In this document: positions 2,271 through 63,976 of the stretch, piece after piece
Layout: the number at the start of each line of letters is the position of its first letter
Position numbering within the stretch: position 1 is the stretch's first letter
NCBI GenBank assembly: GCA_043808705.1
Contig: JAZDEO010000028.1
Span: 2,703 to 66,702 of the forward strand
Direction: 5' to 3'
DNA from: an archaeon
GTDB lineage: Archaea > Nanobdellota > Nanobdellia > SCGC-AAA011-G17 > GW2011-AR20
Length of the DNA stretch: 64,000 bases
Made by a program: the position numbers and the translations under genes
Notes under the pieces: model-generated
The model's input: the letters and a program-made list of their open reading frames with translations, nothing else
Database searches by the model: none
What the model was told of the DNA's origin: nothing

Positions 2271-2690
2271 TTAAAGGTTACTATCTTTGCTGTCTTTTAA
2301 ATATTTATATATTTTAGGCCATTCTCTTTTTACAAATACCTTTTCCTTTTTGAGCATTAAAGAAAAGCCCTTTCTCTTTAGCTCTTTTGTTACTATGCCG
2401 CCTGCATGAGGATGCTTGTATTTTCTTTCTAGAGGAGAATTAAAACCGTGCATATAATGGGTTAATTCATGAGCAATTGTTATGTCAATTATATATTCAG
2501 GAACTAGTTCATTTTGGAATAAAGAATTTACTACTATTTCTGAATCTTGGCCTATTTTTTTTATATGACCAAATTTTGAGAATGAAGAGCCTTTAAATTT
2601 TATTATTACATTATTTAATTTTGGGGTATCTGGAAATAATAATTCCCATATCTGTTCCAGTCTTTGATTAAGCCATATGTTGTCTCTCAT
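2271..2690 (-). CDS. HExxH zinc metallopeptidase, SprT/DUF45(YgjP)-like
   Basis: IAHELTHYMHGFNSPLERKYKHPH motif (HExxH followed by downstream His). Confidence 0.55.
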   Translation of the reverse strand: MRDNIWLNQRLEQIWELLFPDTPKLNNVIIKFKGSSFSKFGHIKKIGQDSEIVVNSLFQNELVPEYIIDITIAHELTHYMHGFNSPLERKYKHPHAGGIVTKELKRKGFSLMLKKEKVFVKREWPKIYKYLKDSKDSNL

Positions 2691-2756
2691 CAGCAGATTA
2701 AGAAATTTGTCCTTTTAAAAATCTTAGTATTCTTTATTTCTTAGTATTCTTTATTT

Positions 2757-3047
2757 TTAGTAGTCTTGTAATATTTGGTAGCGTGTATCAAAATTTATTT
2801 CAAGGTTTAAAGTTCTAGCCACTTCATATAAACGGGAAGTGTCTATAGAATATTCTATTTGGCCATTAATAGAACTAGAAGAATTAAAACCCAGACCTGT
2901 AAGAGTGCACATATCATCAATAAGATTTTCAGATTCTGCTACTTTTTCTACAGCCAATTCTCCTCTATCAAAATTATCTTGAGATCTAAAGACTAATTTA
3001 AATAAGCCACTCTTTTCTGTTCTTAAAATTGCATAAAAACAAACCAT
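2757..3047 (-). CDS. hypothetical protein (96 aa)
   Basis: ORF only; sits between rpoN and the metallopeptidase. Confidence 0.3.
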   Translation of the reverse strand: MVCFYAILRTEKSGLFKLVFRSQDNFDRGELAVEKVAESENLIDDMCTLTGLGFNSSSSINGQIEYSIDTSRLYEVARTLNLEINFDTRYQILQDY

Positions 3048-3070
3048 ATTAAAAACTCAAGCACTTAATT

Positions 3071-3268
3071 TTAATTTTTTTTGAATTGAGCTATGTCATC
3101 TATCAAATCAACATGACTTGTGAATAATGCTCTACAACAATATCTATCTAAGCCAAGATCATCTAAAACCTTTTTTGGGCTTTCTTTATTTTTTATTCTT
3201 TCTTTGAATTTTTCATAAAGATGTGCTACAGGTTTATTGCAGCTCATACAACGAATAGGAATAATCAT
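3071..3268 (-). CDS. rpoN: DNA-directed RNA polymerase subunit N (Rpo10)
   Basis: MIIPIRCMSCNK…YCCRALFTSHVDLIDDI matches the RpoN/Rpb10 zinc-bundle signature. Confidence 0.88.
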   Translation of the reverse strand: MIIPIRCMSCNKPVAHLYEKFKERIKNKESPKKVLDDLGLDRYCCRALFTSHVDLIDDIAQFKKN

Positions 3269-3329
3269 GGTGTTTTTCCTCCTTAAATATTAAAACAAGA
3301 TAAAATAGGGTTTTATAAAGGTTACTCTT

Positions 3330-4805
3330 TTAATTTTTTAAAATTTTACTTTCTTTGAAATGATTATTATTACCTATTAAATGTTTATAACCTAGGTTTT
3401 CAAGACTATTTTCTTTTCTTACTCTTATTATGACAGAATCACTTACTCTTACTTTATCCATAATTTCTGAGAATTTTACTGTTGGATTTTCTTTATAAAT
3501 ATCAATTATTTTTTGTATCTTTTCCTGAGGAATCTTACATCTTGATTTATTACCTTTGTCAATTTTGTACTTTTTACAAATTCTTCGTACTACACTTTCA
3601 TGAACCCTAAACTGTTTAGCTATTAAATCATTTGATAGATTCATATTTTCTTTAATAAAATCTGCTATTTCATTTCTCTTTTCTTCATCAGTTTTTACTA
3701 CTCTTTCTCCTAGATTATTTTCTTTTAAAACCCTCTGGACTTTTATTTGGCTTACTCCAACTTTTTCAGCTATTTCCAATGTTCTTGTTGTTCCTGAATT
3801 ATACAATTCTATTATCTTTTCTATTTTTTCTTCAGGAATTTTATTCCATATCTTTTTTTCTCCAGTAAAATAACCGGTCTGATTAGAAATATCAGGATAT
3901 TCTTGCATCATAAACAAAAATTTGGAATATTTACTGGGACTTAGGCACATTAATCTTTGTTTAAGAAGTTTGACTAAGTTTTCTCTTTTTGAAATAATCA
4001 TATCCTTATAATCTTTATATTGTTTGATCTCTATTCCAATTTTATTTAAATATTCTTGATATAAATTTCTTTCATCAGAATTATTAGCTGTTAAATGGAT
4101 TCTATATTTTTTACATTTTTTGTCTATTTCCACACAACTTTCTCCTGCTAAAACTCCTTTTATAAAACTAGATATATCCTTTTTATCATAACTATGAAGA
4201 TTATAAGACAAGTTTTTTACATAGCTTTTTATTATTTGACTAAATAATTTGGATTTGTGTTCTATCATTAAAGTTCCATAATAACAATTTTTCAGTTTTG
4301 TATAATTTGAATTTTTGGTGTAAGTAACTGTTTTTGGATATTTAATTTCATCATTTATCTTTGTTTTTGATAACCAGTAATTAATTATTTTATTTTCGAT
4401 CTCTTTTTTGTAATCTAAATCATTTGGTTCTTGCATATTTAATCTAATATACCATCTCCAATTGTTGAAATTTAATTCTAATTCTTTATTGAACCATTCC
4501 ATAACTTTTTTTATTAATCGGTATTCAGAATTAGCAAAGACTAAACAACCGTTATTTGTTTTTCCCATTTCAGCTTGTAATAAACCTAGAACTTCAAATG
4601 TTTCTTCATTACATTTTATTCTTCTTGGTATTGATGTAGAGTGTTCTCTCCAAGAATCGTTAAAATGTTCAGTTATATATGATAAATCAATATAATACTC
4701 TTCAATATTAATATTTAATTTTATTTCTTTTTCATTATCACCAGACAAAATTCTATCTGGAATATACTCTTTTAGATCAATAAATTTTTTGCCCATATTA
4801 GACAA
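3330..4805 (-). CDS. LAGLIDADG-like double-motif nuclease domain fused to three C-terminal HTH repeats (491 aa)
   Basis: Two LAGLIDADG-like segments (LGLLQAEMG at ~aa 73; GVLAGESCV at ~aa 216), each ending in an acidic residue. Three tandem ~50-aa HTH repeats in the C-terminus. Own promoter with conserved upstream motif. Confidence 0.5.
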   Translation of the reverse strand: MSNMGKKFIDLKEYIPDRILSGDNEKEIKLNINIEEYYIDLSYITEHFNDSWREHSTSIPRRIKCNEETFEVLGLLQAEMGKTNNGCLVFANSEYRLIKKVMEWFNKELELNFNNWRWYIRLNMQEPNDLDYKKEIENKIINYWLSKTKINDEIKYPKTVTYTKNSNYTKLKNCYYGTLMIEHKSKLFSQIIKSYVKNLSYNLHSYDKKDISSFIKGVLAGESCVEIDKKCKKYRIHLTANNSDERNLYQEYLNKIGIEIKQYKDYKDMIISKRENLVKLLKQRLMCLSPSKYSKFLFMMQEYPDISNQTGYFTGEKKIWNKIPEEKIEKIIELYNSGTTRTLEIAEKVGVSQIKVQRVLKENNLGERVVKTDEEKRNEIADFIKENMNLSNDLIAKQFRVHESVVRRICKKYKIDKGNKSRCKIPQEKIQKIIDIYKENPTVKFSEIMDKVRVSDSVIIRVRKENSLENLGYKHLIGNNNHFKESKILKN

Positions 4806-4810
4806 TAATA

Positions 4811-4866
4811 AAGACGTTTTAGTTTATAAAGATGGGGGGGCGGAGTTGTCCAGCTGTCCCATATAA
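4811..4866 (-). promoter_or_regulatory. Conserved promoter module copy 1 (GGGACAGCTGGACAA box, 13-nt spacer, TTTATAAA TATA-like box) upstream of the 491-aa HTH gene
   Basis: A ~42-nt stretch matches 63935-63976 base for base on my reading. The GGGACAGCTGGACAA…TTTATAAA core also matches 7188-7242 on the other strand. The TATA-like box ends 24 nt before the ATG. Confidence 0.6.
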
Positions 4867-4913
4867 TAGAATATAGATGATAAAAATGAGAAATATTTAT
4901 ATTTGTTACTACT

Positions 4914-5312
4914 TCAGCGATACGATTTTTGGCGTTTTGCCCTTGCCTTAGAATCATTTGGTTTTCGCTGTTCTTTTCTTCTAATATCTGCTACTAAAAG
5001 CTGTCTATCATAGTCTAAAAACGCTTTTTCAATTCTTTTATCTTGTGTAAATTCAACTATAGCTCTTGCAATAGCTAATCTAATTGCTTCAGACTGAGAG
5101 CGCCATCCTCCACCTCTGACATTAACATCTAATTTTATTTTTTTTGAAATATCTCCAGCTAATATTAAAGGTTCCATTATTTTATCTCGAGCAAATACAG
5201 GATTATAATTACCCAGTAAATTATTATTTATTCTAACTAAGCCTTTGCCTTCCCTTATTGTGGCTCTAGCAATTGCTTTTTTCCTTTTTCCTGACACATG
5301 CACAATTTTCAT
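4914..5312 (-). CDS. rps9: 30S ribosomal protein S9 (uS9)
   Basis: GGGWRSQSEAIRLAIARA…C-terminal KRQKSYR tail typical of S9. Confidence 0.9.
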   Translation of the reverse strand: MKIVHVSGKRKKAIARATIREGKGLVRINNNLLGNYNPVFARDKIMEPLILAGDISKKIKLDVNVRGGGWRSQSEAIRLAIARAIVEFTQDKRIEKAFLDYDRQLLVADIRRKEQRKPNDSKARAKRQKSYR

Positions 5313-5316
5313 ATTT

Positions 5317-5733
5317 TTATACTTCCTTACCTAATAATTTTGCCAAATCTTTAACATAAATAAACCTGAGATTTTTTAATTTTTCCATATTTGCCTTTTT
5401 AATTGTTTCAAACTTTTGATCTTTGAATGAATCTGGAATGCCATTATAACATTTTATGTTCTTAAAGGCTTCTTTTCCTCTAAATTCTCTATGGGAAAGC
5501 ATGCCTCTTATAGTTCTCTTTACTATCTTATCTGAACTTCTTGATAGAAATGGGCCTTTAAATGGTGTTCCCATTTTTATTCTTTTTTCATACTTTTCTA
5601 AGATATTTTCTTTACTGCCAGTTATTACTGCTTTTTCACAATTTATTATATGAATCTCTTCACCTAATAATGCTTGTTTAGCAGCATAACTAGATAATCT
5701 TCCCAAAATTAAATTTTCGGCGTTTATTATCAT
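5317..5733 (-). CDS. rpl13: 50S ribosomal protein L13 (uL13)
   Basis: IINAENLILGRLSSYAAKQ… L13 N-terminal signature; L13-S9 pair. Confidence 0.88.
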   Translation of the reverse strand: MIINAENLILGRLSSYAAKQALLGEEIHIINCEKAVITGSKENILEKYEKRIKMGTPFKGPFLSRSSDKIVKRTIRGMLSHREFRGKEAFKNIKCYNGIPDSFKDQKFETIKKANMEKLKNLRFIYVKDLAKLLGKEV

Positions 5734-5734
5734 T

Positions 5735-5947
5735 TTAATCTTTATATTGGTCTAATTGATAATCTTCTACTGTCTGCTGTCTTTTTTGTGATATGTATCT
5801 AACTTTTCCTGTATCATATCTTAGTCTTTCTGTTTCATCTACAATAAGGTTTGGATCCTCTATTCCAGCTGGTCCACCATCAAATATTAAATTAGGATTT
5901 ACTTTATGAACTAATGTTCTTTGTTGTTTATTTAACATTTTAACCAA
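5735..5947 (-). CDS. hypothetical small protein (70 aa)
   Basis: ORF between L18e and L13, overlaps L18e by 8 nt; no motif recognised. Confidence 0.25.
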   Translation of the reverse strand: MVKMLNKQQRTLVHKVNPNLIFDGGPAGIEDPNLIVDETERLRYDTGKVRYISQKRQQTVEDYQLDQYKD

Positions 5948-6299
5948 TTATCCTTACCTTTTTTCCTTTTTTGTTTTTACTTATTAATTCTTGAATTGAA
6001 ATGGCTTTTCCATTTTTACTTATTTTTTTTAAAGCTTCTGTTGAAAATTGATAAGCAGCTATTGTTATTTTTTTATCTAAACTGCCTAAACTTAAAACCT
6101 TTCCAGGAACTATTGCTGTTTCATCTTCTTTAGTGTATTTATTTATTTTGTATAAGTTAACTTTTCTTCTTTGCCTTGTTGGCCTTTCTAATTCATAAGC
6201 AATTCTTTTCCACAAAGCAACTTTTTCCTTACTAGCTAATATTTTTAGATCTCTAATTAAGTTCTGAAGTTCTAATGTTTGTGGACCTGTTCTTTTCAT
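5940..6299 (-). CDS. rpl18e: 50S ribosomal protein L18e (eL18)
   Basis: …VNLYKINKYTKEDETAIVPGKVLSLGSLDKKITIAA… matches eL18 core; position between rpoD and L13. Confidence 0.82.
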   Translation of the reverse strand: MKRTGPQTLELQNLIRDLKILASKEKVALWKRIAYELERPTRQRRKVNLYKINKYTKEDETAIVPGKVLSLGSLDKKITIAAYQFSTEALKKISKNGKAISIQELISKNKKGKKVRIIG

Positions 6300-6308
6300 T
6301 TTTTATTT

Positions 6309-7085
6309 TTATTTTAATTTCTTGAATTTCTTTTCAAATTCATCTATTTTTTCATTAAGCATAACCATAGATCTTGTTAGAATTTCTTTAGGTGTCAATT
6401 GACCCCAGGATTCTATAAAGAATATGAATTTGTCTCTTGAACTTGCTACTGATATTTTTTCTGAAGATACATCAACGCATGCTTTACAGGCATCACAATT
6501 CTCTATGTTTTTTATTTCTAGTTTATTATCAAATGAAAATACATTTTTAGGACATACCTCAAAGGCTGCCCTTTCATTATAATTATTTAATTTTATTGAA
6601 GGATATTGTCTATAATATGTTAAACATGGACTAAATTTTGTATGTTTTCTTCCAACATCAAGAACAGCTATTGCTTCTAATTCTAAAGACTGGTTTGCTA
6701 ATAATTTTACTATAGGCATTTCAGGATAAACAGGAATACATTTTGGATCTTTGCTCTTTAAATCAGATGCATAAACAGTACAGGGACCTTTTACCTTTAG
6801 TGTAAATTTTAATTCACATAATGCACAACCTTTTCTACTGCATTTACATTGATCTTTTATATTGAAAGATTTAAGGTCTGTTTTTATTGGAATTAACCCC
6901 AATCTATGAGCAAGAATTTCATCATATAATGCTGATTCATTTTTTTCAAAAGTTACAACATCTATAGCTAAACAAGGTGTTTCAAACATTGTTGCTCTTC
7001 TAATTGTATTTGCAATAGTTGGATTTATTTTGTCTAGTATAAATATTAATTTGTTATCTTCTTTTTTTATGACTTTAAGTTCCAT
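6309..7085 (-). CDS. rpoD: DNA-directed RNA polymerase subunit D (Rpo3) with 4Fe-4S-type Cys cluster
   Basis: N-terminal dimerisation domain plus Cys-rich insert (CxxC…CxxC…C) typical of archaeal RpoD. Confidence 0.85.
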   Translation of the reverse strand: MELKVIKKEDNKLIFILDKINPTIANTIRRATMFETPCLAIDVVTFEKNESALYDEILAHRLGLIPIKTDLKSFNIKDQCKCSRKGCALCELKFTLKVKGPCTVYASDLKSKDPKCIPVYPEMPIVKLLANQSLELEAIAVLDVGRKHTKFSPCLTYYRQYPSIKLNNYNERAAFEVCPKNVFSFDNKLEIKNIENCDACKACVDVSSEKISVASSRDKFIFFIESWGQLTPKEILTRSMVMLNEKIDEFEKKFKKLK

Positions 7086-7187
7086 CTTAAGATACTTTCA
7101 AAAATTCGGGTTTAAAAATCTTTCTGAAATGAAGGTTTTTTGTTATTTAATCCTTTAAATAATAATACTTTAACATATATATTACAA

Positions 7188-7242
7188 CATATGGGACAGC
7201 TGGACAAATCATCGAAGAAGCTTTATAAACTAAAAAGTCTTA
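7188..7242 (+). promoter_or_regulatory. Conserved promoter module copy 3 (TATGGGACAGCTGGACAA, 13-nt spacer, CTTTATAAACTAAAAAGTCTT) upstream of the 388-aa HTH gene
   Basis: Aligns with the reverse complement of copies 1 and 2, with the same 13-nt spacer to the TATA-like box. A Shine-Dalgarno-like AGGAGGT lies 5 nt before the ATG at 7295. Confidence 0.6.
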
Positions 7243-7294
7243 ATACTATCGTCGTTATTGAGAGGAAATATTCTTGATAAAATAGGAGGTAAAA

Positions 7295-8461
7295 ATGGAA
7301 TTTTCTAAGGATCTTAGGGAATTAAACCAGGATGAATTTAAGAGGGTTTATGATTATTTAAAAGAAAAAACAAATGATTTCTCTTTTGTTTCTCCTCAAG
7401 TATTATTAGAAAATAATCAATATATGTTAATTTTTCGCATCTGTTTAGGAATGTCTCAAAGGAGTCTAGCTGAATTTATTGGCGTTACTAAAGATTGTTG
7501 CAGGCACATAGAATCAAAAAGATTAAGAATAATCAGCCTAAATAAAGTTAAAAGATACTCAGAAAAAATAAATGAATTAATATCAAACAAAAAAATAAGT
7601 TTTGATAATACTTTATTACACTGGGAAAATTATAATAAATTTCAAAAAAATCAAGTGTTCAAACCTAAATTAATTTTGAGGTCATTTAATGAATTACAAG
7701 TAAAAGATTTAAAAAAGTATTATAAGATACTATTAAACAAAACAAATAATTTTCAAAACATAACGCCGAATTTGATTATGGATGTTCCACAGATAATAGT
7801 TCTTTTAAGAGTCGCTGGATGTATTACATGTTTGAAGATTTCTAAACTTAAAATAGTTTCCCAAAAGAGTTTAAACAATTACGAGAAATTAAAATCTACT
7901 ATTAAGCTCCAAACAGCAAATAAATTCTCAAAATTCTTTAATGAACTGTTTGTTAATAATAAACCAGATTATCAAAAATTTGTGGAGAACTTTAGAATTT
8001 TAAAGGGTTTTTACGGATGCCGTGACTTAAATTTTTTAGTAGAACAAGGATTAAACAGAATGGCAAAAATAAATCCCAACCAATATGAAGATGAGATTGC
8101 TGAGTTGTTAAATAAAAATAATATTAAATTTGAAAAACACAAAATCTTGGATGGGTTAAAGACTAAGTCTAATGTTGATTTTTATATTAAAGAGAAAAAT
8201 ATAGTTATGGAAGTATTTTCTTATAACAGTAAAAAAAGAAGTGATATTAAACTAAAAGCTTGTTTTGTTGATCATAGGTTTCAATCTCTAAAATTAAAAG
8301 AACCTTGTAGGAAAACAATAATATGCATAAAAATTTATGGTAAACCTATATTACATGATTATGTAAAAAGGTATTTGACAATGGACTTAATTAATACAGA
8401 TTTTTTGTTTCTTAATAATGAAATAGAAAATCTTGCAAAAACAATCAAAGAAAATTTGTAA
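7295..8461 (+). CDS. XRE-type HTH protein with an uncharacterised C-terminal domain (388 aa)
   Basis: N-terminal LGMSQRSLAEFIGVTKDCCRHIES looks like an XRE helix-turn-helix. The C-terminus (…VDFYIKEKNIVMEVFSYNSKK…) is a possible PD-(D/E)xK-like segment. The gene is inserted between rpoD and rps11. Confidence 0.45.
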   Translation: MEFSKDLRELNQDEFKRVYDYLKEKTNDFSFVSPQVLLENNQYMLIFRICLGMSQRSLAEFIGVTKDCCRHIESKRLRIISLNKVKRYSEKINELISNKKISFDNTLLHWENYNKFQKNQVFKPKLILRSFNELQVKDLKKYYKILLNKTNNFQNITPNLIMDVPQIIVLLRVAGCITCLKISKLKIVSQKSLNNYEKLKSTIKLQTANKFSKFFNELFVNNKPDYQKFVENFRILKGFYGCRDLNFLVEQGLNRMAKINPNQYEDEIAELLNKNNIKFEKHKILDGLKTKSNVDFYIKEKNIVMEVFSYNSKKRSDIKLKACFVDHRFQSLKLKEPCRKTIICIKIYGKPILHDYVKRYLTMDLINTDFLFLNNEIENLAKTIKENL

Positions 8462-8472
8462 CTACTGTTAAG

Positions 8473-8874
8473 TCACACACGGCGGCCTCTTCGGTAGTGA
8501 GATTTTCTGCAGCCGTCCGTCGGAAACGGTGTTATATCCTCAATGCTTCCTATTCTGAAACCTTCCCTTGATAATGTTCTTACTGCTGCCTGAGCACCAG
8601 GGCCTGGATTTGAAGGACCTTCATGACCGCCAGGAGCTTTTATCTTAACATGTAAAGCATTAATGCCGTGTTCCTTAGCAATTTCTCCTGCTCTTTTTGC
8701 AGCTGCCATCGCTGCTGTTGGAGAACTCTCTAGTCTATGAGTCTTAACTACCATTCCTCCAGATGCTTTAGCAAGAGTTTCAGATCCTGTTATATCGGTA
8801 ATATGAATTATGGTATTATTATAAGAAGCATAAATATATACTAATCCCCATTTTAATTGTTTATCCCTATCCAT
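8473..8874 (-). CDS. rps11: 30S ribosomal protein S11 (uS11)
   Basis: …[27 protein letters not shown]… S11 signature; locally GC-enriched conserved coding. Confidence 0.9.
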
Positions 8875-9556
8875 TTTCTTCCTTTACTTCTTTTTTTATC
8901 TCTTCTTTTTTATCTTTTTTATCGCTTTCTTTTGGATGTTTTAATTCTTTCTCTTTGAATTTTGTGTTTTGTTTCTGTTCTTTTTTCTCTTTTTCTTGTT
9001 TACCTTTTATTGGTTTCTTTTTTTCTTTTTTATCTGCTTTTTCTTCTTTAAATCTTTCTTTATGATCAGGGTTGCTTAAAGCTGATTTTGGGTTAAAGAT
9101 TATTTTGTTTTCTTCATCCCTTAAAACTATATAGGAAGGTGAGGTAATCCTTTTTCCATCTATAAGAATATGACCATGAGTTATAAACTGTCTCGCTTGT
9201 TTTACAGATCTTGAAAGACCTTTCTTAAAAACAATTGTTTGTAATCTTCTTTCTAAAATGCTTTTTAATGTTAAACTTAAAACTTCATCAAATGTTGCGT
9301 TTTTTTCAACTAATCCTAATTTATATAATTTGTTTACTAATTGTTCTTCTTCTTTTTTTGACTGTATTGTTTTTAAACTAATAAGCCTTTTTGCCTGTCT
9401 GGTATATTTTCTAAGTAATGATTGTTGTTTCCAAATCTCTTTTTTATTTTTTAAGGCATATTCTTTTTTTATCTCTCTTTCTTGTTCTATCCTTGTTCTC
9501 TGCCATGGATGTAATGGCTTACTATATTTTTTTCTTATTTTTCTTGGTGCTCCCAT
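8867..9556 (-). CDS. rps4: 30S ribosomal protein S4 (uS4) with a ~60-aa Lys/Glu-rich C-terminal extension
   Basis: S4 core (…[26 protein letters not shown]…) followed by a KE-rich low-complexity tail. Confidence 0.82.
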
Positions 9557-28249: not shown

Positions 28250-30070
28250 TTAGAAATCATTTTCTGTTTCACTTAAACTAAATTCAAAATCTTTAGTTTC
28301 TTCATTTATATCTTCACTTATGTTATCTATGTTTGCTGATTCTTGTAATATTCCTAATTTTATAAAATTAAATGAATCTTGTGCATATATTGTTGCGTTT
28401 ACAGCATCATAATCCCCTAAATATGCTCTTAATGTGTATGTTCCTGCTGGAGCTCCTCTTGGTACTGTAAATGTTCTATCTCTATTTATTGAAGATCCTG
28501 CTGGTAATTGAAAATTGTTTATTGGTCCTAGAATAGGCCCATATACTAGACCAGAGGGCAAAATTATATTAACCCAGATATCTACTCTTGATGGTGTTGT
28601 TTCATAATTACCTGCTGCTATATTATAATTTAATCTTCCACCTGAAGGAGGAAATATTGTTGATCCTATAGGATTTACATCAACCCATACATCTGGATAA
28701 TTTAATCCATAGAATGGAAGCCATCTAATCTGTACAGTATTTCCAGATAAATATTCCCATATTACTTTAGATCCTAAGTCAGATATTGATGAAGTTCTTT
28801 GCTCATCTACCACATTATTAGAACCGCTCATTAATTCAGGAGTGCTCCATGTAATTCCTGCATCTTGTGTTATTGTTTTGTATAAATGATTATTTTTTAC
28901 AAATGTTGCCACAAAAGTATTTCCTGAAATATGTTTTAATTGAGGATTACTTTCTCTATCATCAGATGCTGCTACAGTGCTTGTTGCAAGTGAATTTATA
29001 CTACCTGTAGTTGTATTTCTAAATGCTATAATGTCTGTTTCAGAAGGATTTGTTGAGTTATAGACCTCTGCTAAAATTAATAATTTATTATCTTCAGCTG
29101 CTACAACTGGATTTCTTATATTAAGTTGAGGTGTTGTATAAGACCAGGCATAAGCACTCATATAAGGATATCCATTGCCGTGAGTCATTGAATACCAATC
29201 TGCCTTTATTATGAGCAGTTTCCATTTATTTGTAGTTGTATTATACCAATACCAATCATATACTGAATATGTTTTCTGCTGTGTATGATCTATATCTGAG
29301 GATGTTGAATTACAGTTGTTGTATGATACATAATATCTCAGCCATGAATAACCTGTACTATTGAATTGATAGAAGATTGTTGGTGCATTTACTAGTAAGG
29401 GTCCAAAACTAGAATTTATATGACTAATTACAACTGATTGAAAGCCCCAGGCCCAGTCATCAGAACTATTGTCTACTGCTATATCATTCATGGTCATATT
29501 AGTCCAGTTTTGGTTTATCCAGGGCCAGTATGCTGCCCAGTATCTGTCATTAGATGAGTTTGTAATATTCTTGTAATAATACTGAAGCCAGATATTGCCT
29601 CCTGAGCCAGACTCTTTTGGAGTCACCCAGGTACCATAAAAGGCATGTTCCTGATTATTTGGAAGATAGCCCCAATATTCTATACTTGGATAAGTGGCGT
29701 TTGGATATGCATTTATATTTAAGTCTTGTATTTGTCCATCATTGCTATAAGAAATTAATTTCATCATTTTACTATTTGTAATATCATTATATTCTTCGTA
29801 CATCTTTATTAAATAATTATTTCCAGTATTTCCAGAATCAGCTAATGCTGGATGTTTACTATTTATTGAATCAACAATAGAAGATTCAAATTTCTGTTCT
29901 ATTCTTTGTATCTGCATTAGAGATTTACCTGTTTTTGAGTTATCTGCTTCTTCTCCCACTAATGTTAAATCTTGGTTAATATTCATTGAATGAACATTTA
30001 AGCTAAGAACTAAAGTTATTATAAAAAATAGAGTTATTAATACACTGTAGTTTATTTTCATATCTTTCAT
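28250..30070 (-). CDS. large secreted protein with at least one BNR/Asp-box (sialidase-like beta-propeller?)
   Basis: Signal peptide; TQDAGITWS Asp-box (SxDxGxTW). Confidence 0.4.
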   Translation of the reverse strand: MKDMKINYSVLITLFFIITLVLSLNVHSMNINQDLTLVGEEADNSKTGKSLMQIQRIEQKFESSIVDSINSKHPALADSGNTGNNYLIKMYEEYNDITNSKMMKLISYSNDGQIQDLNINAYPNATYPSIEYWGYLPNNQEHAFYGTWVTPKESGSGGNIWLQYYYKNITNSSNDRYWAAYWPWINQNWTNMTMNDIAVDNSSDDWAWGFQSVVISHINSSFGPLLVNAPTIFYQFNSTGYSWLRYYVSYNNCNSTSSDIDHTQQKTYSVYDWYWYNTTTNKWKLLIIKADWYSMTHGNGYPYMSAYAWSYTTPQLNIRNPVVAAEDNKLLILAEVYNSTNPSETDIIAFRNTTTGSINSLATSTVAASDDRESNPQLKHISGNTFVATFVKNNHLYKTITQDAGITWSTPELMSGSNNVVDEQRTSSISDLGSKVIWEYLSGNTVQIRWLPFYGLNYPDVWVDVNPIGSTIFPPSGGRLNYNIAAGNYETTPSRVDIWVNIILPSGLVYGPILGPINNFQLPAGSSINRDRTFTVPRGAPAGTYTLRAYLGDYDAVNATIYAQDSFNFIKLGILQESANIDNISEDINEETKDFEFSLSETENDF

Positions 30071-30184
30071 ATAAATGCCCCTGTTGATATTATAAATTTA
30101 TTATTGATAAACAATCAAATGCTTTTGTGTCATATGTTTTATATAAATACTTTATTATTGTCTAGTATAATATAATTTTTGCGA

Positions 30185-30300
30185 TTAATGGCTCTGGTGC
30201 AACCCTATTTACATCACGACGGTTAGATTTTATGCGAACATTTTGTTTATCTTCGAAACTACAAAAGGGTTGCACCAGAGCCCGATTAATATTAAAAAAG
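30185..30300. repeat. ~115-bp element with ~20-bp near-perfect terminal inverted repeats (MITE-like or structured RNA)
   Basis: TTAATGGCTCTGGTGCAACCCT (30185-30206) pairs with AGGGTTGCACCAGAGCCCGATTAAT (30276-30300). GC content is raised locally. Confidence 0.55.
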
Positions 30301-30325
30301 TTGAAATATTTTTTTATTTTAATTA

Positions 30326-30403
30326 TCCTAATCGAGTAGTAACAGAAAACCTTAAAATACTTAAAAACCATTAAAAAGCTGAGTTAAAATGTCCTTAAAA
30401 AAC
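30326..30403 (+). promoter_or_regulatory. Orphan copy of the metalloprotease promoter module plus first 5 codons (ATGTCCTTAAAAAAC), then diverges and stops early
   Basis: ~75 nt near-identical to 36703-36789 (AGTAGTAACAGAAAACCTTAAA(A)TACTTAAAAACCATTAAAAA…TTAAAATGTCCTTAAAAAA). Confidence 0.6.
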
Positions 30404-30407
30404 AAGC

Positions 30408-31670
30408 TTAATTGGTTTTTATTTTTTCTAAACTATAAGGCAATATTAAAGAATATTCAATATCTTTTTGTGTATTTAGATTAATTAAGTACTTCTTTTT
30501 AGTTTTAGGATATTCTTTCATAAAAGCGTCAAGACCATTGAAATCATCAGATTTTATATTTTGTTTAAACTTTACTTCTAAAGGTATTTGTAAGCTTATA
30601 TTGTCTATAATAAAATCTACTTCAGTTTTATTTTTGTCCTGCCAAAATTTTATATTTTTGATACCCTTTTTTATTAGTTCAGAAAGCACAAAACCCTCAA
30701 ATAAAAAACCAATATCATTCCTTAAGGAGATTTCATTAAAATTCTTAATAAAAAAGTTTCTAACACCATTATCAATAAAATATACTTTTGGGATCTTTAC
30801 AAGTTCTTTATTTTTATTGGTATAAAATGGTTTTAATAAATAAACAAGATATGTTTCTTTCAATATTTCTATATAATTTTTCACTTCTTTATATCTTAAT
30901 GAAAACTTTTCTGAGATTTCTTCATATTTAATCTTTTGACCGTGGTTTACAGCCAGGTATTCTATTAAATTTTTTATATCTAAAATCTTTTCTATGTGTA
31001 AGTAACTGATTAAGTCTTTTTTTGCATATAAGTCAAATATGCTTTCTAGAACTTCTATTTTTTCTTCTTTAGTGTTCTTTAAAACAACCCCAGGATATCC
31101 ACCAAAAATGAGAAATTCTTCTAATAAGTGATTTAATTCAGGTAATAAGATGTAAAGACCATCTCCCTCTAGATTTTTTGCATTATTTAGTTTTTCAATA
31201 ATCTTATCATCTTGTTTGAACCATAAAAATTCTTCAAAATCTAATGCAAAAAGCTCGTTTACTTTTTTTCTGCCAGCAAGACTTTCCTGTACTTGGTCTT
31301 TTATAACCAAAGATGAAGAACTGGAGGCATAAATCTTTATATTATCAAAATTATCATAAACATTCTTCATAATATTTGCAAGATTAATATATTTTTGGAA
31401 TTCGTCCAAGAATAAATAATAAAAATCCTTTTCACTTTCTTTATAACCATTTAGCTTTAGAGTATTAATTAAATTTTCAAAGGTACTTATTTTTTCATAA
31501 TTGGATAGAATATCCAAATCAAGAAAAAGGCATTTGTTAGTTTTTGAAAGCTCTTTATAAAGCTCTTTTAATAATGTTGTTTTTCCAACCTGTCTTGGAC
31601 CTAAAATTATAGATATCTTTTTATCTTTTCTTTGTTCTTTTATCCTTTCAAACAGTTTTCTTGGTAGCAT
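30408..31670 (-). CDS. AAA+ ATPase (AAA_14 + DUF4143 family), paralog 1
   Basis: Walker A ILGPRQVGKTTLLKEL; paralogous to 31867-33126 and 35299-36687. Confidence 0.75.
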   Translation of the reverse strand: MLPRKLFERIKEQRKDKKISIILGPRQVGKTTLLKELYKELSKTNKCLFLDLDILSNYEKISTFENLINTLKLNGYKESEKDFYYLFLDEFQKYINLANIMKNVYDNFDNIKIYASSSSSLVIKDQVQESLAGRKKVNELFALDFEEFLWFKQDDKIIEKLNNAKNLEGDGLYILLPELNHLLEEFLIFGGYPGVVLKNTKEEKIEVLESIFDLYAKKDLISYLHIEKILDIKNLIEYLAVNHGQKIKYEEISEKFSLRYKEVKNYIEILKETYLVYLLKPFYTNKNKELVKIPKVYFIDNGVRNFFIKNFNEISLRNDIGFLFEGFVLSELIKKGIKNIKFWQDKNKTEVDFIIDNISLQIPLEVKFKQNIKSDDFNGLDAFMKEYPKTKKKYLINLNTQKDIEYSLILPYSLEKIKTN

Positions 31671-31810
31671 TTTGTGTTTTTGTTTGTATTTTTATTCTAA
31701 ATTACATCTTTCTTTATTCTAGAGTACTCTAAAATTACTAAATATAGAATAATAGAGTACTATATAAACCTTTCCCTTTTCATATTTTTATTGTTCTATT
31801 TTATATTATC

Positions 31811-31850
31811 CCAACAAAGTAGTAACAGAAAACCTTAAATACTAATATTA
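31811..31850 (+). promoter_or_regulatory. AGTAGTAACAGAAAACCTTAAATAC promoter-module copy (orphan) between AAA paralogs
   Basis: Matches the module at 30334, 36712, and (reverse complement) 44217; a diverged copy is at 33207. Confidence 0.5.
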
Positions 31851-31866
31851 GAAATTATATAGTTAA

Positions 31867-33126
31867 TTATATTGTTGTTTTGTTTAATAATACAAAATAA
31901 AATGGTATAACTTTAATTGTTTTATCTTCAAAATTTATCTCTTGTTTTTTGTTATAACTGATTATGTATCCTATCTTAATATTAAATTTCTTCATGAATT
32001 TTTTTAAACCATCAATATCTATCTTTCCATATTTTATTTCTATAGGTTTTATTATCCCTTTATCCATTTTTATTATGTCTACCTCATTTTTTGATGTATC
32101 TATATAAAAGAATTCAGCTTCTAATTGAATTACAATAAAGTTCTCAAAGGCTTTTGATATTTTTTCAGAGTCTATTAAATCGGGATGTATTATTGAACAA
32201 TAGAACTTCTTTGACTTCTTTTCTGTTTTTCTTATGTTTCTTGAAAAATTATAAAGTTTTCTTATTAAGAAAGAATCCTCAAGATACCTTAAATACAAGC
32301 TTAATGTTTGCCTGGATACAGATAACTCTGAACTTAGCTTGCTTATTTCTATAATTTGTCCTGGATTTAACATTATTATTCTTACTATCTTATCAAGTAA
32401 ATCAATATCCTTAATATCAAAAATTTCGGGAATATCTTTATAGATTATCTTTTCGATTATGCTTTCTTTTAGATATTTTTTGCATGTTTCTATATCTTCA
32501 TTTATTAACTCTGGAAAGCCGTTTGTGATTATATACTGCCTGAATAGATTTAATATATCTCTTTCATACAGTTCTAGATTTTCTCCAATCTTAATATTTT
32601 TAAAAGATATAAATTCTTTAAAGCTTAAAGGTTTTATACTAAATTCATAGAATCTACCTGCGAGACTCTCTCTAGATTTCTTTCTTATAAATAGAGATTC
32701 AGAACCAGAAATTATAAATTTTATATTAGGATAGTTATCATAATATCTTTTTATTTGTTCTTCCCAGTTTTCTAATTTTTGTATTTCATCAAAAAAGAAA
32801 ATATATTTTTCACTTTCAATATTTTTTCCAAATATGTCACAATAAGCTTCTATTACTTCTCTTATTTTAACATCATTAAAATAATCAAAAGAGAAATATA
32901 CAACATTTTCTTTGTTTAGAATTTTTAAATTCTCTTCTATTATTTTAAACATTATTGTTGTTTTTCCTACCCTTCTTAAACCTGTAAGTGCAATAATCTG
33001 TCTTTTATCAATAAATTTTTTTATTTCACCATAAATCTCTCTTGATTTAAACTCTATAGAGAAATCTTTAGTCCACCATTTATTAACATCTCTAAATGCT
33101 GATTTTATATCACTTATTTCTTGCAT
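31867..33126 (-). CDS. AAA+ ATPase (DUF4143 family), paralog 2
   Basis: Walker A LTGLRRVGKTTIMFKI; paralog. Confidence 0.75.
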   Translation of the reverse strand: MQEISDIKSAFRDVNKWWTKDFSIEFKSREIYGEIKKFIDKRQIIALTGLRRVGKTTIMFKIIEENLKILNKENVVYFSFDYFNDVKIREVIEAYCDIFGKNIESEKYIFFFDEIQKLENWEEQIKRYYDNYPNIKFIISGSESLFIRKKSRESLAGRFYEFSIKPLSFKEFISFKNIKIGENLELYERDILNLFRQYIITNGFPELINEDIETCKKYLKESIIEKIIYKDIPEIFDIKDIDLLDKIVRIIMLNPGQIIEISKLSSELSVSRQTLSLYLRYLEDSFLIRKLYNFSRNIRKTEKKSKKFYCSIIHPDLIDSEKISKAFENFIVIQLEAEFFYIDTSKNEVDIIKMDKGIIKPIEIKYGKIDIDGLKKFMKKFNIKIGYIISYNKKQEINFEDKTIKVIPFYFVLLNKTTI

Positions 33127-33245
33127 CTTATAATTAACTTATTATTAATAATATGTTAAGTGTGATTAACATATTTAAATGTTTCTATTTTATATCATTA
33201 TAATCAAGTAGTAACAGAGAAGATTATATAGTTAAAAAGAATAAA

Positions 33246-33270
33246 GAGCGAGAAAATTTTGTGCCTAAGC
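33246..33270 (+). repeat. Repeat A (GAGCGAGAAAATTNTGTGCCTARGC), copy 1
   Basis: Copies at 33246, 33997, 40366, 41391 (partial) and 46891. Confidence 0.7.
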
Positions 33271-33329
33271 CGTCAAGTTACAATTAAAACAATAAACATT
33301 TAAATATGTAAATTAATGTATTCAGTAAG

Positions 33330-33617
33330 ATGAAATACTATATTAAAACAATCAAGTTAAAGGCTTTGCCTGTATTAAAGAAGTATAATATAGCTAGAGC
33401 CGGTATATTCGGAAGTTATGCTAGAGGAGACTATAAAAAGAATAGTGATGTAGATATGTTAATTGAAGTTAAAGATGGTTTCAGTTTACTTGACTTAATT
33501 GGTTTAGAAATGGAACTTAAGAAAATTTTAAAGAAGAAGGTTGATTTATTGACATATGGTTGTATTCATCCTTTATTGAAGGAAAAAATATTAAATGAAG
33601 AGATAAGGATAATATGA
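33330..33617 (+). CDS. minimal nucleotidyltransferase (MNT) antitoxin-type
   Basis: GIFGSYARGDYKKNSDVDMLIEV motif (GS…D.D). Confidence 0.8.
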   Translation: MKYYIKTIKLKALPVLKKYNIARAGIFGSYARGDYKKNSDVDMLIEVKDGFSLLDLIGLEMELKKILKKKVDLLTYGCIHPLLKEKILNEEIRII

Positions 33618-33976: not shown

Positions 33977-33996
33977 TAAGAAAACTTACAATTAAT

Positions 33997-34781: not shown

Positions 34782-34784
34782 AAT

Positions 34785-34991: not shown

Positions 34992-34995
34992 TAAT

Positions 34996-63921: not shown

Positions 63922-63976
63922 TAAGACTTTTTCATTTATAAAGATGGGGGGGCGGAGTTGTCCAGCTGTCCCATAT
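63922..63976 (-). promoter_or_regulatory. Conserved promoter module copy 2 (identical G-rich box + TATA-like box) upstream of the 63710-63913 ORF
   Basis: 42/42 nt identical to 4823-4865 on my reading; the TATA-like box TTTATAAA lies ~25 nt upstream of the ATG. Confidence 0.6.

What the first reader, a model, noticed from the sequence alone, without database searches (positions are those of the whole stretch)
3330..4805. Free-standing LAGLIDADG-like/triple-HTH gene inserted between rps9 and rpoN in the otherwise universal L13-S9-RpoN block
Archaeal rpl13-rps9-rpoN are normally contiguous, but here a 1.5-kb gene splits them. The protein has two LAGLIDADG-like segments (LGLLQAEMG and GVLAGESCV), each ending in an acidic residue. 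Three tandem C-terminal HTH repeats of ~50 aa follow. It carries its own conserved promoter module. LAGLIDADG enzymes in archaea are usually intron- or intein-encoded. A promoter-bearing free-standing copy inside a ribosomal operon suggests a homing-type selfish insertion. Alternatively it is a domesticated DNA-binding regulator.
Basis: partly seen in the sequence, partly recalled or inferred. Interest (0 to 1): 0.65.

Follow-up and report, generated by a model that had tools for sequence, protein, structure and literature searches.

The report
Free-standing archaeal LAGLIDADG homing-endonuclease cassette
A nuclease-type gene with its own promoter sits between two normally touching housekeeping genes (ribosomal protein S9 and RNA polymerase subunit N) in a tiny-genome archaeon, and comparison with relatives shows it behaves like a mobile "homing" gene that comes, goes and is swapped at exactly this one spot.

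Summary
Window 3330-4796(-) encodes a 488-aa protein between rps9 and rpoN. It has an N-terminal beta domain, a double LAGLIDADG core and three tandem HTH repeats. The AlphaFold model (pLDDT 87) matches I-DmoI best. Both catalytic acidic residues (E76, E219) and K79 are conserved across the family and in 40 distant relatives.

In 40 of 41 carrier genomes (Woesearchaeota/Nanoarchaeota MAGs) the gene lies next to S9, in either orientation. It is not a lineage core gene. Of 75 informative S9-selected metagenome loci, 57 have S9 joined directly to RpoN (median spacer 14 nt) and only 2 carry the gene. Empty sites nest among carriers: L024 (filled) and L117 (empty) share 90% identity in flanking proteins.

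The cassette's history differs from that of its flanks. Between L024 and L031 it is 89-97% identical while flanks are 70-83% (dS 0.36 vs 1.5-3.0). L009/L010 show the reverse. About 9% of copies are degraded, yet dN/dS (0.11-0.27) equals that of ribosomal proteins.

Best reading: an active or recently active free-standing homing-endonuclease cassette specific for the S9|RpoN junction, with a portable promoter shared with other nuclease-like guest genes. A WhiA-like domesticated regulator is not excluded. No biochemistry exists.

The parts
3330..4796 (-). LAGLIDADG-HTH gene ('LHE'), 488 aa from ATG 4796. An alternative TTG start at 4805 gives 491 aa.
   Evidence: (P0001, 100% identical, 488 aa).
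4614..4796 (-). N-terminal beta-rich extension, aa 1-61, ahead of the first LAGLIDADG helix. It is conserved (P13, Y40).
   Evidence: Secondary structure of the AF2 model; alignment A1.
3897..4613 (-). Double LAGLIDADG core, aa ~62-300. Monomeric, pseudo-dimeric nuclease fold.
   Evidence: AF2 pLDDT is mostly above 90 here. Foldseek against I-DmoI gives E 2.4e-5, probability 1.0, target-normalised TM 0.56-0.61. Other matches are I-Tsp061I, PI-SceI, bI3 maturase and WhiA.
4563..4589 (-). LAGLIDADG motif 1, LGLLQAEMG (aa 70-78). E76 is the putative metal ligand. The invariant K79 lies at +3.
4131..4157 (-). LAGLIDADG motif 2, GVLAGESCV (aa 214-222). E219 is the putative metal ligand.
   Evidence: Pfam LAGLIDADG_3 matches aa 213-282 at E 5e-4.
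3702..3842 (-). HTH repeat 1 (aa 319-365).
3537..3701 (-). HTH repeat 2 (aa 366-420). It resembles the paired-like/PAI HTH.
3384..3536 (-). HTH repeat 3 (aa 421-471). It is absent from many homologues; the repeat number varies from 0 to 3.
4823..4863 (-). The cassette's own promoter module. It has an upstream tandem GGACA boxes element (GGGACAGCTGGACA, 4847-4860), a G+C-rich spacer, and TATA TTTATAAA (4823-4830) 27 nt before the ATG.
   Evidence: The equivalent CACTGGACA...TATA module lies upstream of homologues in other genomes.
4904..4913 (-). AGTAGTAACA box directly after the S9 stop codon. It is conserved at this position in most carrier loci and absent from empty junctions. Elsewhere in the window the same 10-mer sits just 5' of BRE/TATA elements.
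3269..3329 (-). Spacer that carries a separate promoter for rpoN (TATA CTTTATAAAA, 3311-3320) and a Shine-Dalgarno sequence. It replaces the translational coupling to S9 seen at empty sites.
4914..5312 (-). rps9, the upstream flank. Its 3' end is a candidate half of the homing site.
3071..3268 (-). rpoN, the downstream flank. Its 5' end is a candidate half of the homing site.
7193..7230 (+). Second copy of the promoter module, upstream of orf388.
7295..8461 (+). orf388, a second guest gene in the same operon, between S11 and RpoD. It has two XRE-type HTH domains and a C-terminal domain that is possibly PD-(D/E)xK nuclease-like.
63935..63972 (-). Third copy of the promoter module. It is 41 nt identical to the LHE copy and lies upstream of a 67-aa ORF (63710-63913-).

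Best explanation
The gene is a free-standing LAGLIDADG homing-endonuclease gene, with no intron and no intein. It is packaged as a self-sufficient cassette that occupies the S9|RpoN junction of the ribosomal-protein/RNA-polymerase operon in a scattered minority of Woesearchaeota-type (DPANN) archaea.

Shown here:
- The protein has a double LAGLIDADG fold.
- Both metal-ligand acidic residues and a neighbouring lysine are conserved.
- The C-terminal array of paired-like HTH repeats is variable (0-3 repeats).
- The cassette is always at the same junction.
- Most related genomes have a tight, translationally coupled S9-RpoN junction instead.
- Filled and empty sites alternate among close relatives.
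- The cassette's sequence divergence is decoupled from that of the flanking housekeeping genes in both directions.
- Some copies are decaying.

Inferred mechanism:
1. The enzyme recognises the intact junction. This is the conserved last codons of S9 (KRQKSYR-stop) and/or the first codons of RpoN (MIIPxRC), which lie about 14 nt apart in empty alleles.
2. It cuts that junction.
3. Recombinational repair from a filled allele copies the cassette in.
4. Insertion separates or alters the site, so the carrier is immune.

The HTH array probably lengthens or anchors DNA recognition. It could also let the protein repress its own promoter.

The cassette limits its cost in two ways. It brings its own promoter (GGACA boxes plus TATA). 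The rpoN gene downstream has acquired a promoter of its own. In one subgroup a structured leader hides the ribosome-binding site.

Long-term purifying selection is explained by continuing cycles of invasion, decay, loss and re-invasion among recombining populations.
For: Fold: AF2 pLDDT is 87.4. The best PDB matches are I-DmoI, I-Tsp061I, PI-SceI, bI3 maturase and WhiA.

Catalytic residues:
- E76 and K79 are invariant, and position 219 is E or D in 41/41 sequences.
- The same residues are kept in 40 distant cluster representatives.
- WhiA and the maturases have lost them (PMC3384342).

Site specificity:
- In 39/41 genome loci the gene is next to S9.
- L017 was also confirmed by an S9 fragment at the contig end.
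- Seven loci are inverted but at the same site.

Empty sites:
- Of 75 informative S9-selected loci, 57 are empty, 2 are filled and 16 hold other inserts.
- Empty junctions are clean, with an SD and ATG within about 14 nt of the S9 stop.
- Nesting (tree): L024 (filled) vs L117 (empty) share 90% aa identity over six flanking proteins. L024 vs the filled L025 and L031 share 83% and 80%. The window's nearest sampled relative, L042, is empty (62% vs 58% for the filled L015).

Decoupled history:
- L024 vs L031: LHE dS is 0.36 against 1.55, 3.0 and 1.65 for S9, L13 and L18e.
- The same pair is 89-97% identical in DNA over module, leader and ORF, inside a 70-83% background.
- L009 vs L010: flanks are 87-100% identical but LHE is 70-85%, with the breakpoint inside the 3' half of S9.
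- These two pairs are the only strong outliers among 528 pairs.

Decay: L029 has an internal deletion, L038 a frameshift, L040 is an 81-aa remnant, and L043 is split.

Footprints:
- A relic S9 3' end lies in the L087 spacer.
- A duplicated target-gene end lies next to a distant relative in L123.

Function maintained: dN/dS is 0.11-0.27.

Self-sufficient cassette:
- Own promoter.
- An rpoN promoter in carriers.
- An SD-sequestering leader with 9 of 24 pairs compensatory.

Precedent for free-standing LAGLIDADG-type homing next to a housekeeping gene: the WHO elements (PMC7282813).
Against: - No cleavage assay exists and the target site is only inferred.
- The gene evolves as slowly as S9 and L13: mean p-distance 0.52 vs 0.42 and 0.55. 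Its distances correlate with those of the flanks (r 0.59, Mantel 0/2000). Most of its history is therefore vertical, as expected for a host gene too.
- Only two pairs show clear discordance. Both could be ordinary homologous recombination between co-occurring populations.
- The deep nodes of my neighbour-joining trees are not reliable.
- Relic fragments of S9 or RpoN are rare.
- Homing copies a cassette in a fixed orientation, so the seven inverted copies need extra rearrangements.
- The sequences are MAG and metagenome contigs, so frameshifts may be sequencing errors.
- No relative was found on viral contigs that could act as a vector.
Confidence: 0.6

Rival explanations
1. Domesticated LAGLIDADG-HTH DNA-binding protein, an archaeal analogue of bacterial WhiA. 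On this view it is an old, vertically inherited regulator, for example of rpoN, of the operon, or of the GGACA-box regulon. It is dispensable and has often been lost.
For: - The architecture (LAGLIDADG scaffold plus C-terminal HTH) matches WhiA, and WhiA structures are among the fold hits: 3hyi, 3hyj, 8dy9.
- Purifying selection equals that on ribosomal proteins.
- The phylogeny is broadly congruent with the flanks.
- The position is fixed.
- The promoter module is conserved and shared with three other gene families, which could be a regulon.
Against: - Both catalytic acidic residues and the +3 lysine are retained throughout the family and its distant relatives. WhiA has lost them.
- No WhiA Pfam family is hit.
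- Only about 3% of S9-selected related loci carry the gene, and the closest relatives of carriers have clean empty junctions.
- The cassette shows decoupled divergence.
- Variants without any HTH keep the same site and the same promoter module (L036, L037).
Confidence: 0.25
2. An ordinary accessory gene of unknown role that happens to sit in a rearrangement hotspot. Its patchiness and discordance would come from general deletion and homologous recombination, not from its own nuclease.
For: - The S9|RpoN junction and other junctions of this operon hold many unrelated inserts in relatives. These include HEPN/NTase, PhzF, IS630, aspartokinase, AsnRS, RNase T, Fic and cyclophilin genes.
- 16 of 75 loci hold non-LHE inserts or rearrangements.
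Against: - One gene family is found at one junction in 40 of 41 species-level genomes spanning deep divergence. That is far more site-specific than the other, sporadic inserts.
- The catalytic motif is conserved.
- The high-identity island in L024/L031 coincides with the cassette boundaries.
Confidence: 0.12
3. A maturase-like RNA-binding LAGLIDADG protein that serves rRNA or tRNA introns of the host.
For: - The bI3 maturase is among the fold matches.
- DPANN rRNA genes are intron-rich (general knowledge; PMC6125680 is listed).
Against: - The catalytic residues are retained, whereas maturases typically lose them.
- There is a tandem DNA-type HTH array.
- No intron or RNA family was detected around the gene.
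- The distribution is patchy.
Confidence: 0.03

Closest known systems
I-DmoI and other monomeric archaeal LAGLIDADG homing endonucleases (I-Tsp061I, I-Vdi141I type)
   Same: [quoted passage not shown]
- An acidic residue sits at the end of each LAGLIDADG helix. I-DmoI likewise has E at its second motif.
- The lysine three residues after E76 parallels K120 after E117 in I-DmoI (the mapping is by motif and is an inference).
   Different: - It is not intron-encoded. It is free-standing, has its own promoter and lies in an intergenic junction.
- It carries an extra 61-aa N-terminal beta domain and 0-3 C-terminal HTH repeats.
- Sequence similarity is too low for PDB sequence searches. The Pfam hit is below threshold for this member.
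WhiA/DUF199 (bacterial LAGLIDADG-derived transcription factor)
   Same: The domain order is the same: a LAGLIDADG scaffold followed by a C-terminal HTH. The genomic position is conserved. WhiA structures are significant fold matches.
   Different: [quoted passage not shown] Here they are invariant.
- No WhiA Pfam domains are hit.
- This family is archaeal and patchy. It is not universal within its lineage.
WHO elements of Torulaspora/Lachancea yeasts, relatives of HO (PMC7282813)
   Same: - Both are free-standing LAGLIDADG-type endonuclease genes with an added DNA-binding domain.
- Both sit beside a highly conserved housekeeping gene.
- Both show presence/absence polymorphism.
- In both, the adjacent gene end has a history discordant with the rest. 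Here the breakpoint lies in the 3' half of S9 (L009/L010).
- Occasional relic gene-end fragments are seen (L087, L123, L024).
   Different: - WHO proteins are intein-derived (Hint domain plus zinc finger). No Hint domain is present here.
- WHO builds tandem clusters with regular FBA1 3' fragments. Relic fragments here are rare and no clusters were seen.
- The host is an archaeon, not a eukaryote.
Free-standing homing endonuclease genes of T4-like phages (seg/mob genes, 'intronless homing')
   Same: - They are intergenic and promoter-bearing, and sit between conserved genes.
- They are variably present among relatives.
- Expression is restrained by RNA structure over the ribosome-binding site. 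Compare the group-2 leader. The phage facts come from general knowledge.
   Different: The phage genes belong to the GIY-YIG and HNH families, not LAGLIDADG. They are viral, not cellular chromosomal genes.
Cbp1 (Sulfolobus CRISPR-repeat-binding protein) and PAI/paired-like HTH of Tc1/IS630 transposases
   Same: The tandem three-helix HTH repeats resemble these. NCBIfam HTH_Cbp1 gives E 1.9e-9 over aa 325-442. The Sleeping Beauty PAI subdomain is the best PDB sequence hit of the family profile (E 0.087).
   Different: The scores are far below the family cut-off (37.6 vs 140 bits). The resemblance covers only the HTH array. No transposase or CRISPR context is present.

Membership tests
LAGLIDADG homing endonucleases | [quoted passage not shown] | tested here: met
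   The AF2 model has pLDDT 87.4. Foldseek to I-DmoI gives probability 1.0, E 2.4e-5 and target-normalised TM 0.56-0.61. Other LAGLIDADG enzymes also match. This is a prediction, not an experimental structure.
LAGLIDADG homing endonucleases | A conserved acidic metal ligand at the C-terminal end of each LAGLIDADG helix | tested here: met
   E76 is invariant, and position 219 is E in 40 sequences and D in 1 of 41. An acidic residue is present at both positions in 40 distant representatives.
LAGLIDADG homing endonucleases | Match to the Pfam LAGLIDADG_1/2/3 models above the gathering score | tested here: inconclusive
   The window protein matches LAGLIDADG_3 only, at 20.6 bits against a cut-off of 22.5. 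Many homologues carry a precomputed PF14528 hit.
LAGLIDADG homing endonucleases | Site-specific double-strand cleavage of the uninterrupted (empty) target | not testable with these tools
   This needs a cleavage assay on empty S9-RpoN junction DNA.
LAGLIDADG homing endonucleases | Genetic signature of homing: a fixed insertion site, filled/empty polymorphism among relatives, a history discordant with the flanks, and decaying copies | tested here: met
   Fixed site. Polymorphism: 57 empty vs 2 filled of 75 loci, with empties nested among carriers. Discordance in two pairs. Degraded copies. All of this is indirect evidence.
LAGLIDADG homing endonucleases | Residence in a self-splicing intron or an intein (the usual state, not obligatory) | tested here: not met
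   The ORF is separate, bounded by stop codons and driven by its own TATA box. No Rfam family is detected in 2500-9000 at E<=1. It is free-standing.
WhiA/DUF199 | LAGLIDADG scaffold followed by a C-terminal HTH domain | tested here: met
   This is architecture only.
WhiA/DUF199 | [quoted passage not shown] | tested here: not met
   The residues are retained. For the WhiA state.
WhiA/DUF199 | Match to the WhiA Pfam domains (WhiA_N, LAGLIDADG_WhiA, HTH_WhiA) | tested here: not met
   None is listed at E<=1.
WHO-type free-standing homing elements | Free-standing endonuclease gene beside a conserved housekeeping gene whose adjacent end is replaced at each homing event, leaving relic fragments | tested here: inconclusive
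   A breakpoint lies in the 3' half of S9 in L009/L010. Relics are seen in L087 and L024, and in L123 for a relative. A systematic search found no further fragments.
WHO-type free-standing homing elements | Intein-derived (Hint) domain plus zinc finger | tested here: not met
   There are no Hint or zinc-finger hits. The fold matches to PI-SceI cover only the endonuclease part.
Cbp1 (HTH_Cbp1, NF040595) | Equivalog-level match to the three-HTH CRISPR-repeat-binding protein | tested here: not met
   The score is 37.6 bits against a cut-off of 140.

The most novel reading that the evidence does not exclude
The S9|RpoN cassette is one member of a guild of intron-less, intein-less homing nuclease cassettes that colonise several junctions of the universal ribosomal-protein/RNA-polymerase operon in DPANN archaea.

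The guild would include:
- the LAGLIDADG-HTH gene at S9|RpoN;
- a canonical LAGLIDADG gene at RpoD|L18e;
- an HTH plus PD-(D/E)xK-like gene at S11|RpoD.

All are driven by one portable GGACA-box/TATA promoter module. The tandem-HTH LAGLIDADG protein may double as the module's regulator. This would be an archaeal counterpart of phage intronless homing and of the yeast WHO elements. It would also be direct evidence for frequent DNA exchange among these ultra-small archaea.
Probability: 0.3. Interest if true: 0.8.

Novelty: new variant of a known kind. Interest (0 to 1): 0.6.

Why it matters
If the enzyme is active, this is a cellular, chromosomal, free-standing LAGLIDADG homing element in archaea. 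In archaea such enzymes are otherwise known from rRNA/tRNA introns and from inteins. Four consequences follow.

1. It would show that highly conserved gene junctions, and not only coding or rRNA sequences, can serve as homing sites. The price is rewiring operon expression: new promoters for the guest gene and for rpoN.
2. The filled/empty polymorphism and the cassette-sized islands of discordant divergence are a ready-made marker of homologous recombination and gene flow in uncultivated DPANN populations.
3. The family is large: 72 clusters at 50% identity with E<1e-30, and about 280 with E<1e-10. Its intact catalytic motifs and modular HTH extension make it a possible source of meganucleases with extended recognition.
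4. The shared 40-nt promoter module, and the leader that hides the ribosome-binding site, are testable examples of how selfish genes are expressed and restrained in archaea.

If the protein is instead a regulator, it would be an archaeal, independently evolved counterpart of WhiA that still keeps a nuclease active site.

Tried and rejected
- Sequence searches of the PDB, with the protein and with the family profile, found no LAGLIDADG entry. They returned only weak HTH hits. The fold assignment therefore relies on AF2 and Foldseek.
- A viral-contig scan with the family profile found no relative, so no phage or virus vector was identified.
- Rfam found no intron or other RNA family around the gene in the window, in group-2 loci or around distant relatives.
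- ARAGORN found no tRNA in the S9-LHE gaps.
- A systematic HMM search for extra S9 3' or RpoN 5' fragments (WHO-like relics) found only the L024 duplication and the real S9 at the end of L017. I do not claim a WHO-type mechanism.
- The S9 Ser130 codon is AGY in 24/41 filled loci and in 7/56 empty loci. This is suggestive of resistant alleles. It is confounded by phylogeny and is not consistent within the closest filled/empty pairs. I treat it as a lead only.
- I considered the idea that the GGACA module is a general promoter of this genome and rejected it. It occurs only three times in 64 kb, each time before a non-core gene.
- I considered the idea that the module is bound by the protein's own HTH array. 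That idea is weakened because HTH-less variants keep the module (L036).
- The contexts of distant relatives (P0167, P0169, P0176, P0187, P0193, P0209, P0215) were mostly short contigs with no common neighbour and no GGACA module.
- The literature searches found no description of this family.
Full report
**1. What is in the window**

The minus strand of the first 10 kb carries this gene order: S4, S11, RpoD, L18e, L13, S9, [guest], RpoN, then two unknown ORFs (window 2757-3047 and 2271-2690), and then L30e, NusA, S12 and S7 (Pfam for S9 and RpoN).

The guest is an ORF at 3330-4805. The public record of this same contig starts the protein at ATG 4796, giving 488 aa ('MAG: archaeon', hypothetical protein). 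ATG 4796 is the likelier start. A TATA box (TTTATAAA, 4823-4830) ends 27 nt upstream, the geometry of a leaderless archaeal mRNA.

G+C content is about 25% across the gene and its flanks, so composition does not mark it as foreign.

No intron or other RNA family is detectable around it. It is a separate reading frame, so it is free-standing and is neither an intron ORF nor an intein.

**2. The protein**

- LGLLQAEMG, aa 70-78;
- GVLAGESCV, aa 214-222.

Pfam gives only a sub-threshold LAGLIDADG_3 hit (E 5e-4, 20.6 vs 22.5 bits) and many weak HTH hits. NCBIfam gives a weak match to the three-HTH protein Cbp1.

An AlphaFold model built on 41 homologues is confident (pLDDT 87.4). It shows four parts:
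- a beta-rich N-terminal extension, aa 1-61;
- a helical linker;
- three tri-helical HTH units. Repeat 1 vs repeat 3 is 51% identical.

Foldseek against the PDB puts the archaeal intron enzyme I-DmoI first (E 2.4e-5, probability 1.0, target-normalised TM 0.56-0.61). WhiA, PI-SceI, E-DreI, the bI3 maturase and I-Tsp061I follow.

In the family alignment GLLQAE (E76) and K79 are invariant. Position 219 is E in 40 sequences and D in one. The same acidic pair, and usually the lysine at +3, persist in 40 much more distant cluster representatives.

This retention separates nucleases from domesticated LAGLIDADG proteins. WhiA has lost the acidic and basic active-site residues and does not cut DNA (PMC3384342).

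**3. Distribution and synteny**

The family is confined to Woesearchaeota/Nanoarchaeota-type MAGs. I found 153 or more proteins at 40-79% identity. At 50% clustering there are 72 representatives with E<1e-30 and 280 with E<1e-10.

A scan of one genome per species returned 41 loci.
- In 39 loci the gene abuts S9.
- A 40th locus, L017, has S9 at the very end of the contig.
- The 41st, L041, is a 29%-identical paralogue at a contig end.
- Most copies read S9 > LHE > RpoN. Seven are inverted but lie at the same junction.

The number of HTH repeats varies from 0 to 3.

**4. It is not a core gene: empty sites are the rule**

I scanned metagenome contigs with an S9 profile. This sampling is blind to the guest gene. 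Among the 80 best loci, 75 were informative:
- 57 have S9 followed directly by RpoN. The median spacer is 14 nt, with a Shine-Dalgarno sequence inside it.
- 2 carry the gene.
- 16 hold unrelated inserts or rearrangements.

In a tree of L18e+L13+S9, filled and empty loci interleave. Because deep neighbour-joining nodes are weak, I rely on plain identities over six flanking proteins:

| Pair | Status | aa identity |
|---|---|---|
| L024 vs L117 | filled vs empty | 90% |
| L024 vs L025 | filled vs filled | 83% |
| L024 vs L031 | filled vs filled | 80% |
| L033 vs L087 | filled vs empty | 83% |
| L036 vs L098 | filled vs empty | 77% |
| window vs L042 (its nearest sampled relative) | filled vs empty | 62% |
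| window vs L015 | filled vs filled | 58% |

**5. The cassette has its own history**

Across 33 carriers, LHE distances correlate with S9+L13 distances (r 0.59; 0 of 2000 Mantel permutations reached this value). The gene is as conserved as its neighbours: mean p-distance 0.52 against 0.42 for S9 and 0.55 for L13. The trees share most shallow clades. dN/dS is 0.11-0.27, the same range as the ribosomal proteins. Descent is therefore mostly vertical, under purifying selection.

Two pairs break the pattern strongly.
- **L024 vs L031.** LHE has dS 0.36, while S9, L13 and L18e have 1.55, 3.0 and 1.65. A sliding comparison shows an island of 89-97% identity. It starts at the promoter module and ends at the 3' end of the ORF, inside a 70-83% background.
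- **L009 vs L010.** The pattern is reversed. Flanks are 87-100% identical and LHE is 70-85%. The switch lies inside the 3' half of S9.

L024's closest relative is empty. The simplest account is that the cassette recently entered the L024 lineage from an L031-like donor, and that allele replacement with co-conversion of the S9 end occurred in L009 or L010.

About 9% of copies are damaged: L029 has an internal deletion, L038 a frameshift, L040 is an 81-aa stump followed by RpoN, and L043 is split.

Small scars also exist:
- a relic S9 3' end in the spacer of the 'empty' L087;
- an exact 112-nt duplication of the RpoN promoter and 5' end in L024;
- a duplicated 28-codon 5' end of dph5 next to a distant relative in L123.

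**6. Expression signals**

The promoter module is TATGGGACAGCTGGACA, a G+C-rich spacer, then TTTATAAA. It occurs three times in the 64 kb, each time before a non-core gene:
- the LHE gene;
- orf388, between S11 and RpoD;
- a 67-aa ORF beside an IS200/IS605 element.

In other genomes the equivalent module, one or two CACTGGACA or CACTTGACA boxes followed by GCGCAG-like sequence and TATA, precedes several gene families:
- LHE homologues of both subgroups;
- a second, canonical LAGLIDADG family. It lies between RpoD and L18e in L028, L031 and L035, and elsewhere in L024, L027 and L036. The module was seen before the L028, L024 and L036 copies, not before L031 or L035;
- orf388 homologues.

It behaves as a portable promoter of guest genes. 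Its binding factor is unknown. HTH-less LHE variants keep it, which argues against simple dependence on the LHE's own HTH array.

In carriers rpoN has its own BRE/TATA (aaagCTTTAAAAA) 25-60 nt before the ATG. The window copy is at 3311-3320. In empty alleles rpoN is instead coupled to S9.

One subgroup (L022-L027, L031-L035, L037, L039) places the module about 170 nt upstream. It adds a conserved leader in which AATCACC pairs with the Shine-Dalgarno GGTGATT. In the consensus fold 9 of 24 pairs show compensatory changes across six sequences. This would throttle translation, a common feature of homing-endonuclease genes (general knowledge).

**7. Interpretation**

I conclude that this is a free-standing LAGLIDADG homing-endonuclease cassette specific for the S9|RpoN junction, active now or until recently (confidence 0.6). 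The reasons are:
- intact catalytic motifs;
- one fixed site;
- predominance of clean empty sites, which also nest among carriers;
- cassette-sized islands of discordant divergence;
- decaying copies;
- self-contained expression signals.

The target is inferred, not shown. It would be the conserved end of S9 and/or the start of RpoN, which are adjacent only in empty alleles. Two observations hint that the S9 end is part of the site: the S9 breakpoint in L009/L010, and an excess of AGY Ser130 codons in filled alleles (24/41 vs 7/56, not corrected for phylogeny).

The main rival is a WhiA-like domesticated regulator (0.25). Slow evolution and congruent phylogeny favour it. The retained active site and the rarity of carriers count against it.

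The closest mechanistic precedents are phage intronless homing and the yeast WHO elements (PMC7282813). Defining WHO features are not met: there is no Hint domain and there are no regular relic fragments.

**8. Novelty**

The kind, a free-standing homing endonuclease gene, is known. Three aspects are not described in the papers I could search:
- the archaeal chromosomal setting at an operon junction;
- the tandem-HTH extension;
- the promoter module shared with other nuclease-like guests.

Some database records merely label homologues 'LAGLIDADG family homing endonuclease'. I rate it a new variant of a known kind, with interest 0.6.

Noticed in passing
window 7295-8461 (+), promoter module 7193-7230: orf388 is a second guest gene in the same operon.
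- It has two XRE-type HTH domains and a C-terminal domain with invariant D295, E306 and D326-H327.
- Its AF2 model has pLDDT 83.8.
- PDB fold hits are all weak (best E 0.019), but many are PD-(D/E)xK nucleases: Can2, Nt.BspD6I, BsoBI, AF1548 and XPF/MUS81.
- In five other contigs it always lies convergent with the S11 stop. One of these has an empty S9|RpoN junction.
- Its homologues in L126 and L127 carry the same tandem-box promoter module.
   Followed up: partly
window 63710-63972 (-) and 62182-63713: The third copy of the promoter module (63935-63972) is 41 nt identical to the LHE copy. It drives a 67-aa ORF with no Pfam hit (63710-63913). That ORF abuts an IS200/IS605 tnpA (63234-63713, +) and a tnpB fragment (62182-62886, -).
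   Followed up: partly
window 4904-4913, 30335-30344, 31818-31827, 33207-33216, 36711-36720, 44218-44227 (also 8457-8466 with one mismatch): The 10-mer AGTAGTAACA has six exact copies.
- Five sit directly 5' of GAAAACCTTAAATAC-type BRE/TATA promoters.
- The sixth follows the S9 stop. It is conserved there in most carrier loci of other genomes and is absent from empty junctions.
- A one-mismatch copy follows the S11 stop.
It is probably a lineage-specific upstream promoter element. Its role next to S9 is unexplained.
   Followed up: partly
window ~30000-47100: This is a region of paralogous direct repeats, with pairs of 160-300 nt at 76-88% identity. Examples are 39845/46374, 42121/43446 and 34998/46924. 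It also holds repeated promoter-plus-leader units. This suggests a tandemly amplified gene family.
   Followed up: no
L024:4836-4985 and the equivalent stretches of L025, L026, L032, L033, L039: A conserved, structured 5' leader of ~150 nt lies between the promoter module and the LHE start codon in one subgroup. The Shine-Dalgarno GGTGATT pairs with AATCACC, and 9 of 24 predicted pairs show compensatory changes. There is no Rfam match. In L031 a second promoter module sits inside the leader's hairpin loop.
   Followed up: partly
L028:1210-2013 (+), L031:2684-3514 (+), L035:2635-3528 (+), L036:3143-3844 (-), L024:1-580 (-): A second, canonical LAGLIDADG family (Pfam LAGLIDADG_3 down to 2.8e-15) lies between RpoD and L18e in three genomes and elsewhere in others. 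The same CACTGGACA/TATA module precedes it in L028, L024 and L036.
   Followed up: partly
L024:6100-6210 and 6487-6597: An exact 112-nt direct duplication covers the RpoN promoter and the first ~25 codons. It flanks a ~275-nt insert, and the LHE reading frame runs into the first copy. This is either a target duplication from a recent insertion or an assembly artefact.
   Followed up: no
L123:1031-3220: A distant LHE relative (P0167, 462 aa) lies directly upstream of a diphthine-synthase-like gene (TP_methylase). It is preceded by a diverged 28-codon duplicate of that gene's 5' end. This resembles gene-end replacement by a mobile cassette.
   Followed up: partly
L042-L121 and L001-L041, operon junctions: In these archaea the S9|RpoN, RpoD|L18e and L18e|L13 junctions hold many unrelated inserts. 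Among them are a HEPN/NTase pair, PhzF, an IS630 transposase, aspartokinase, a class II aaRS, RNase T, Fic and cyclophilin. The 'universal' block is widely eroded.
   Followed up: partly
proteins P0161, P0163, P0179, P0198 and others: The ~50-aa HTH repeat unit of the LHE also occurs as arrays of 4-11 repeats in long proteins of 580-1557 aa that lack the LAGLIDADG core.
   Followed up: no
L131:160-278 and L133:1-62: Distant relatives lack the GGACA module. They instead have near-palindromic ATAATTATTACRGTAAT boxes on both sides of a TATA box, which look like an operator.
   Followed up: no
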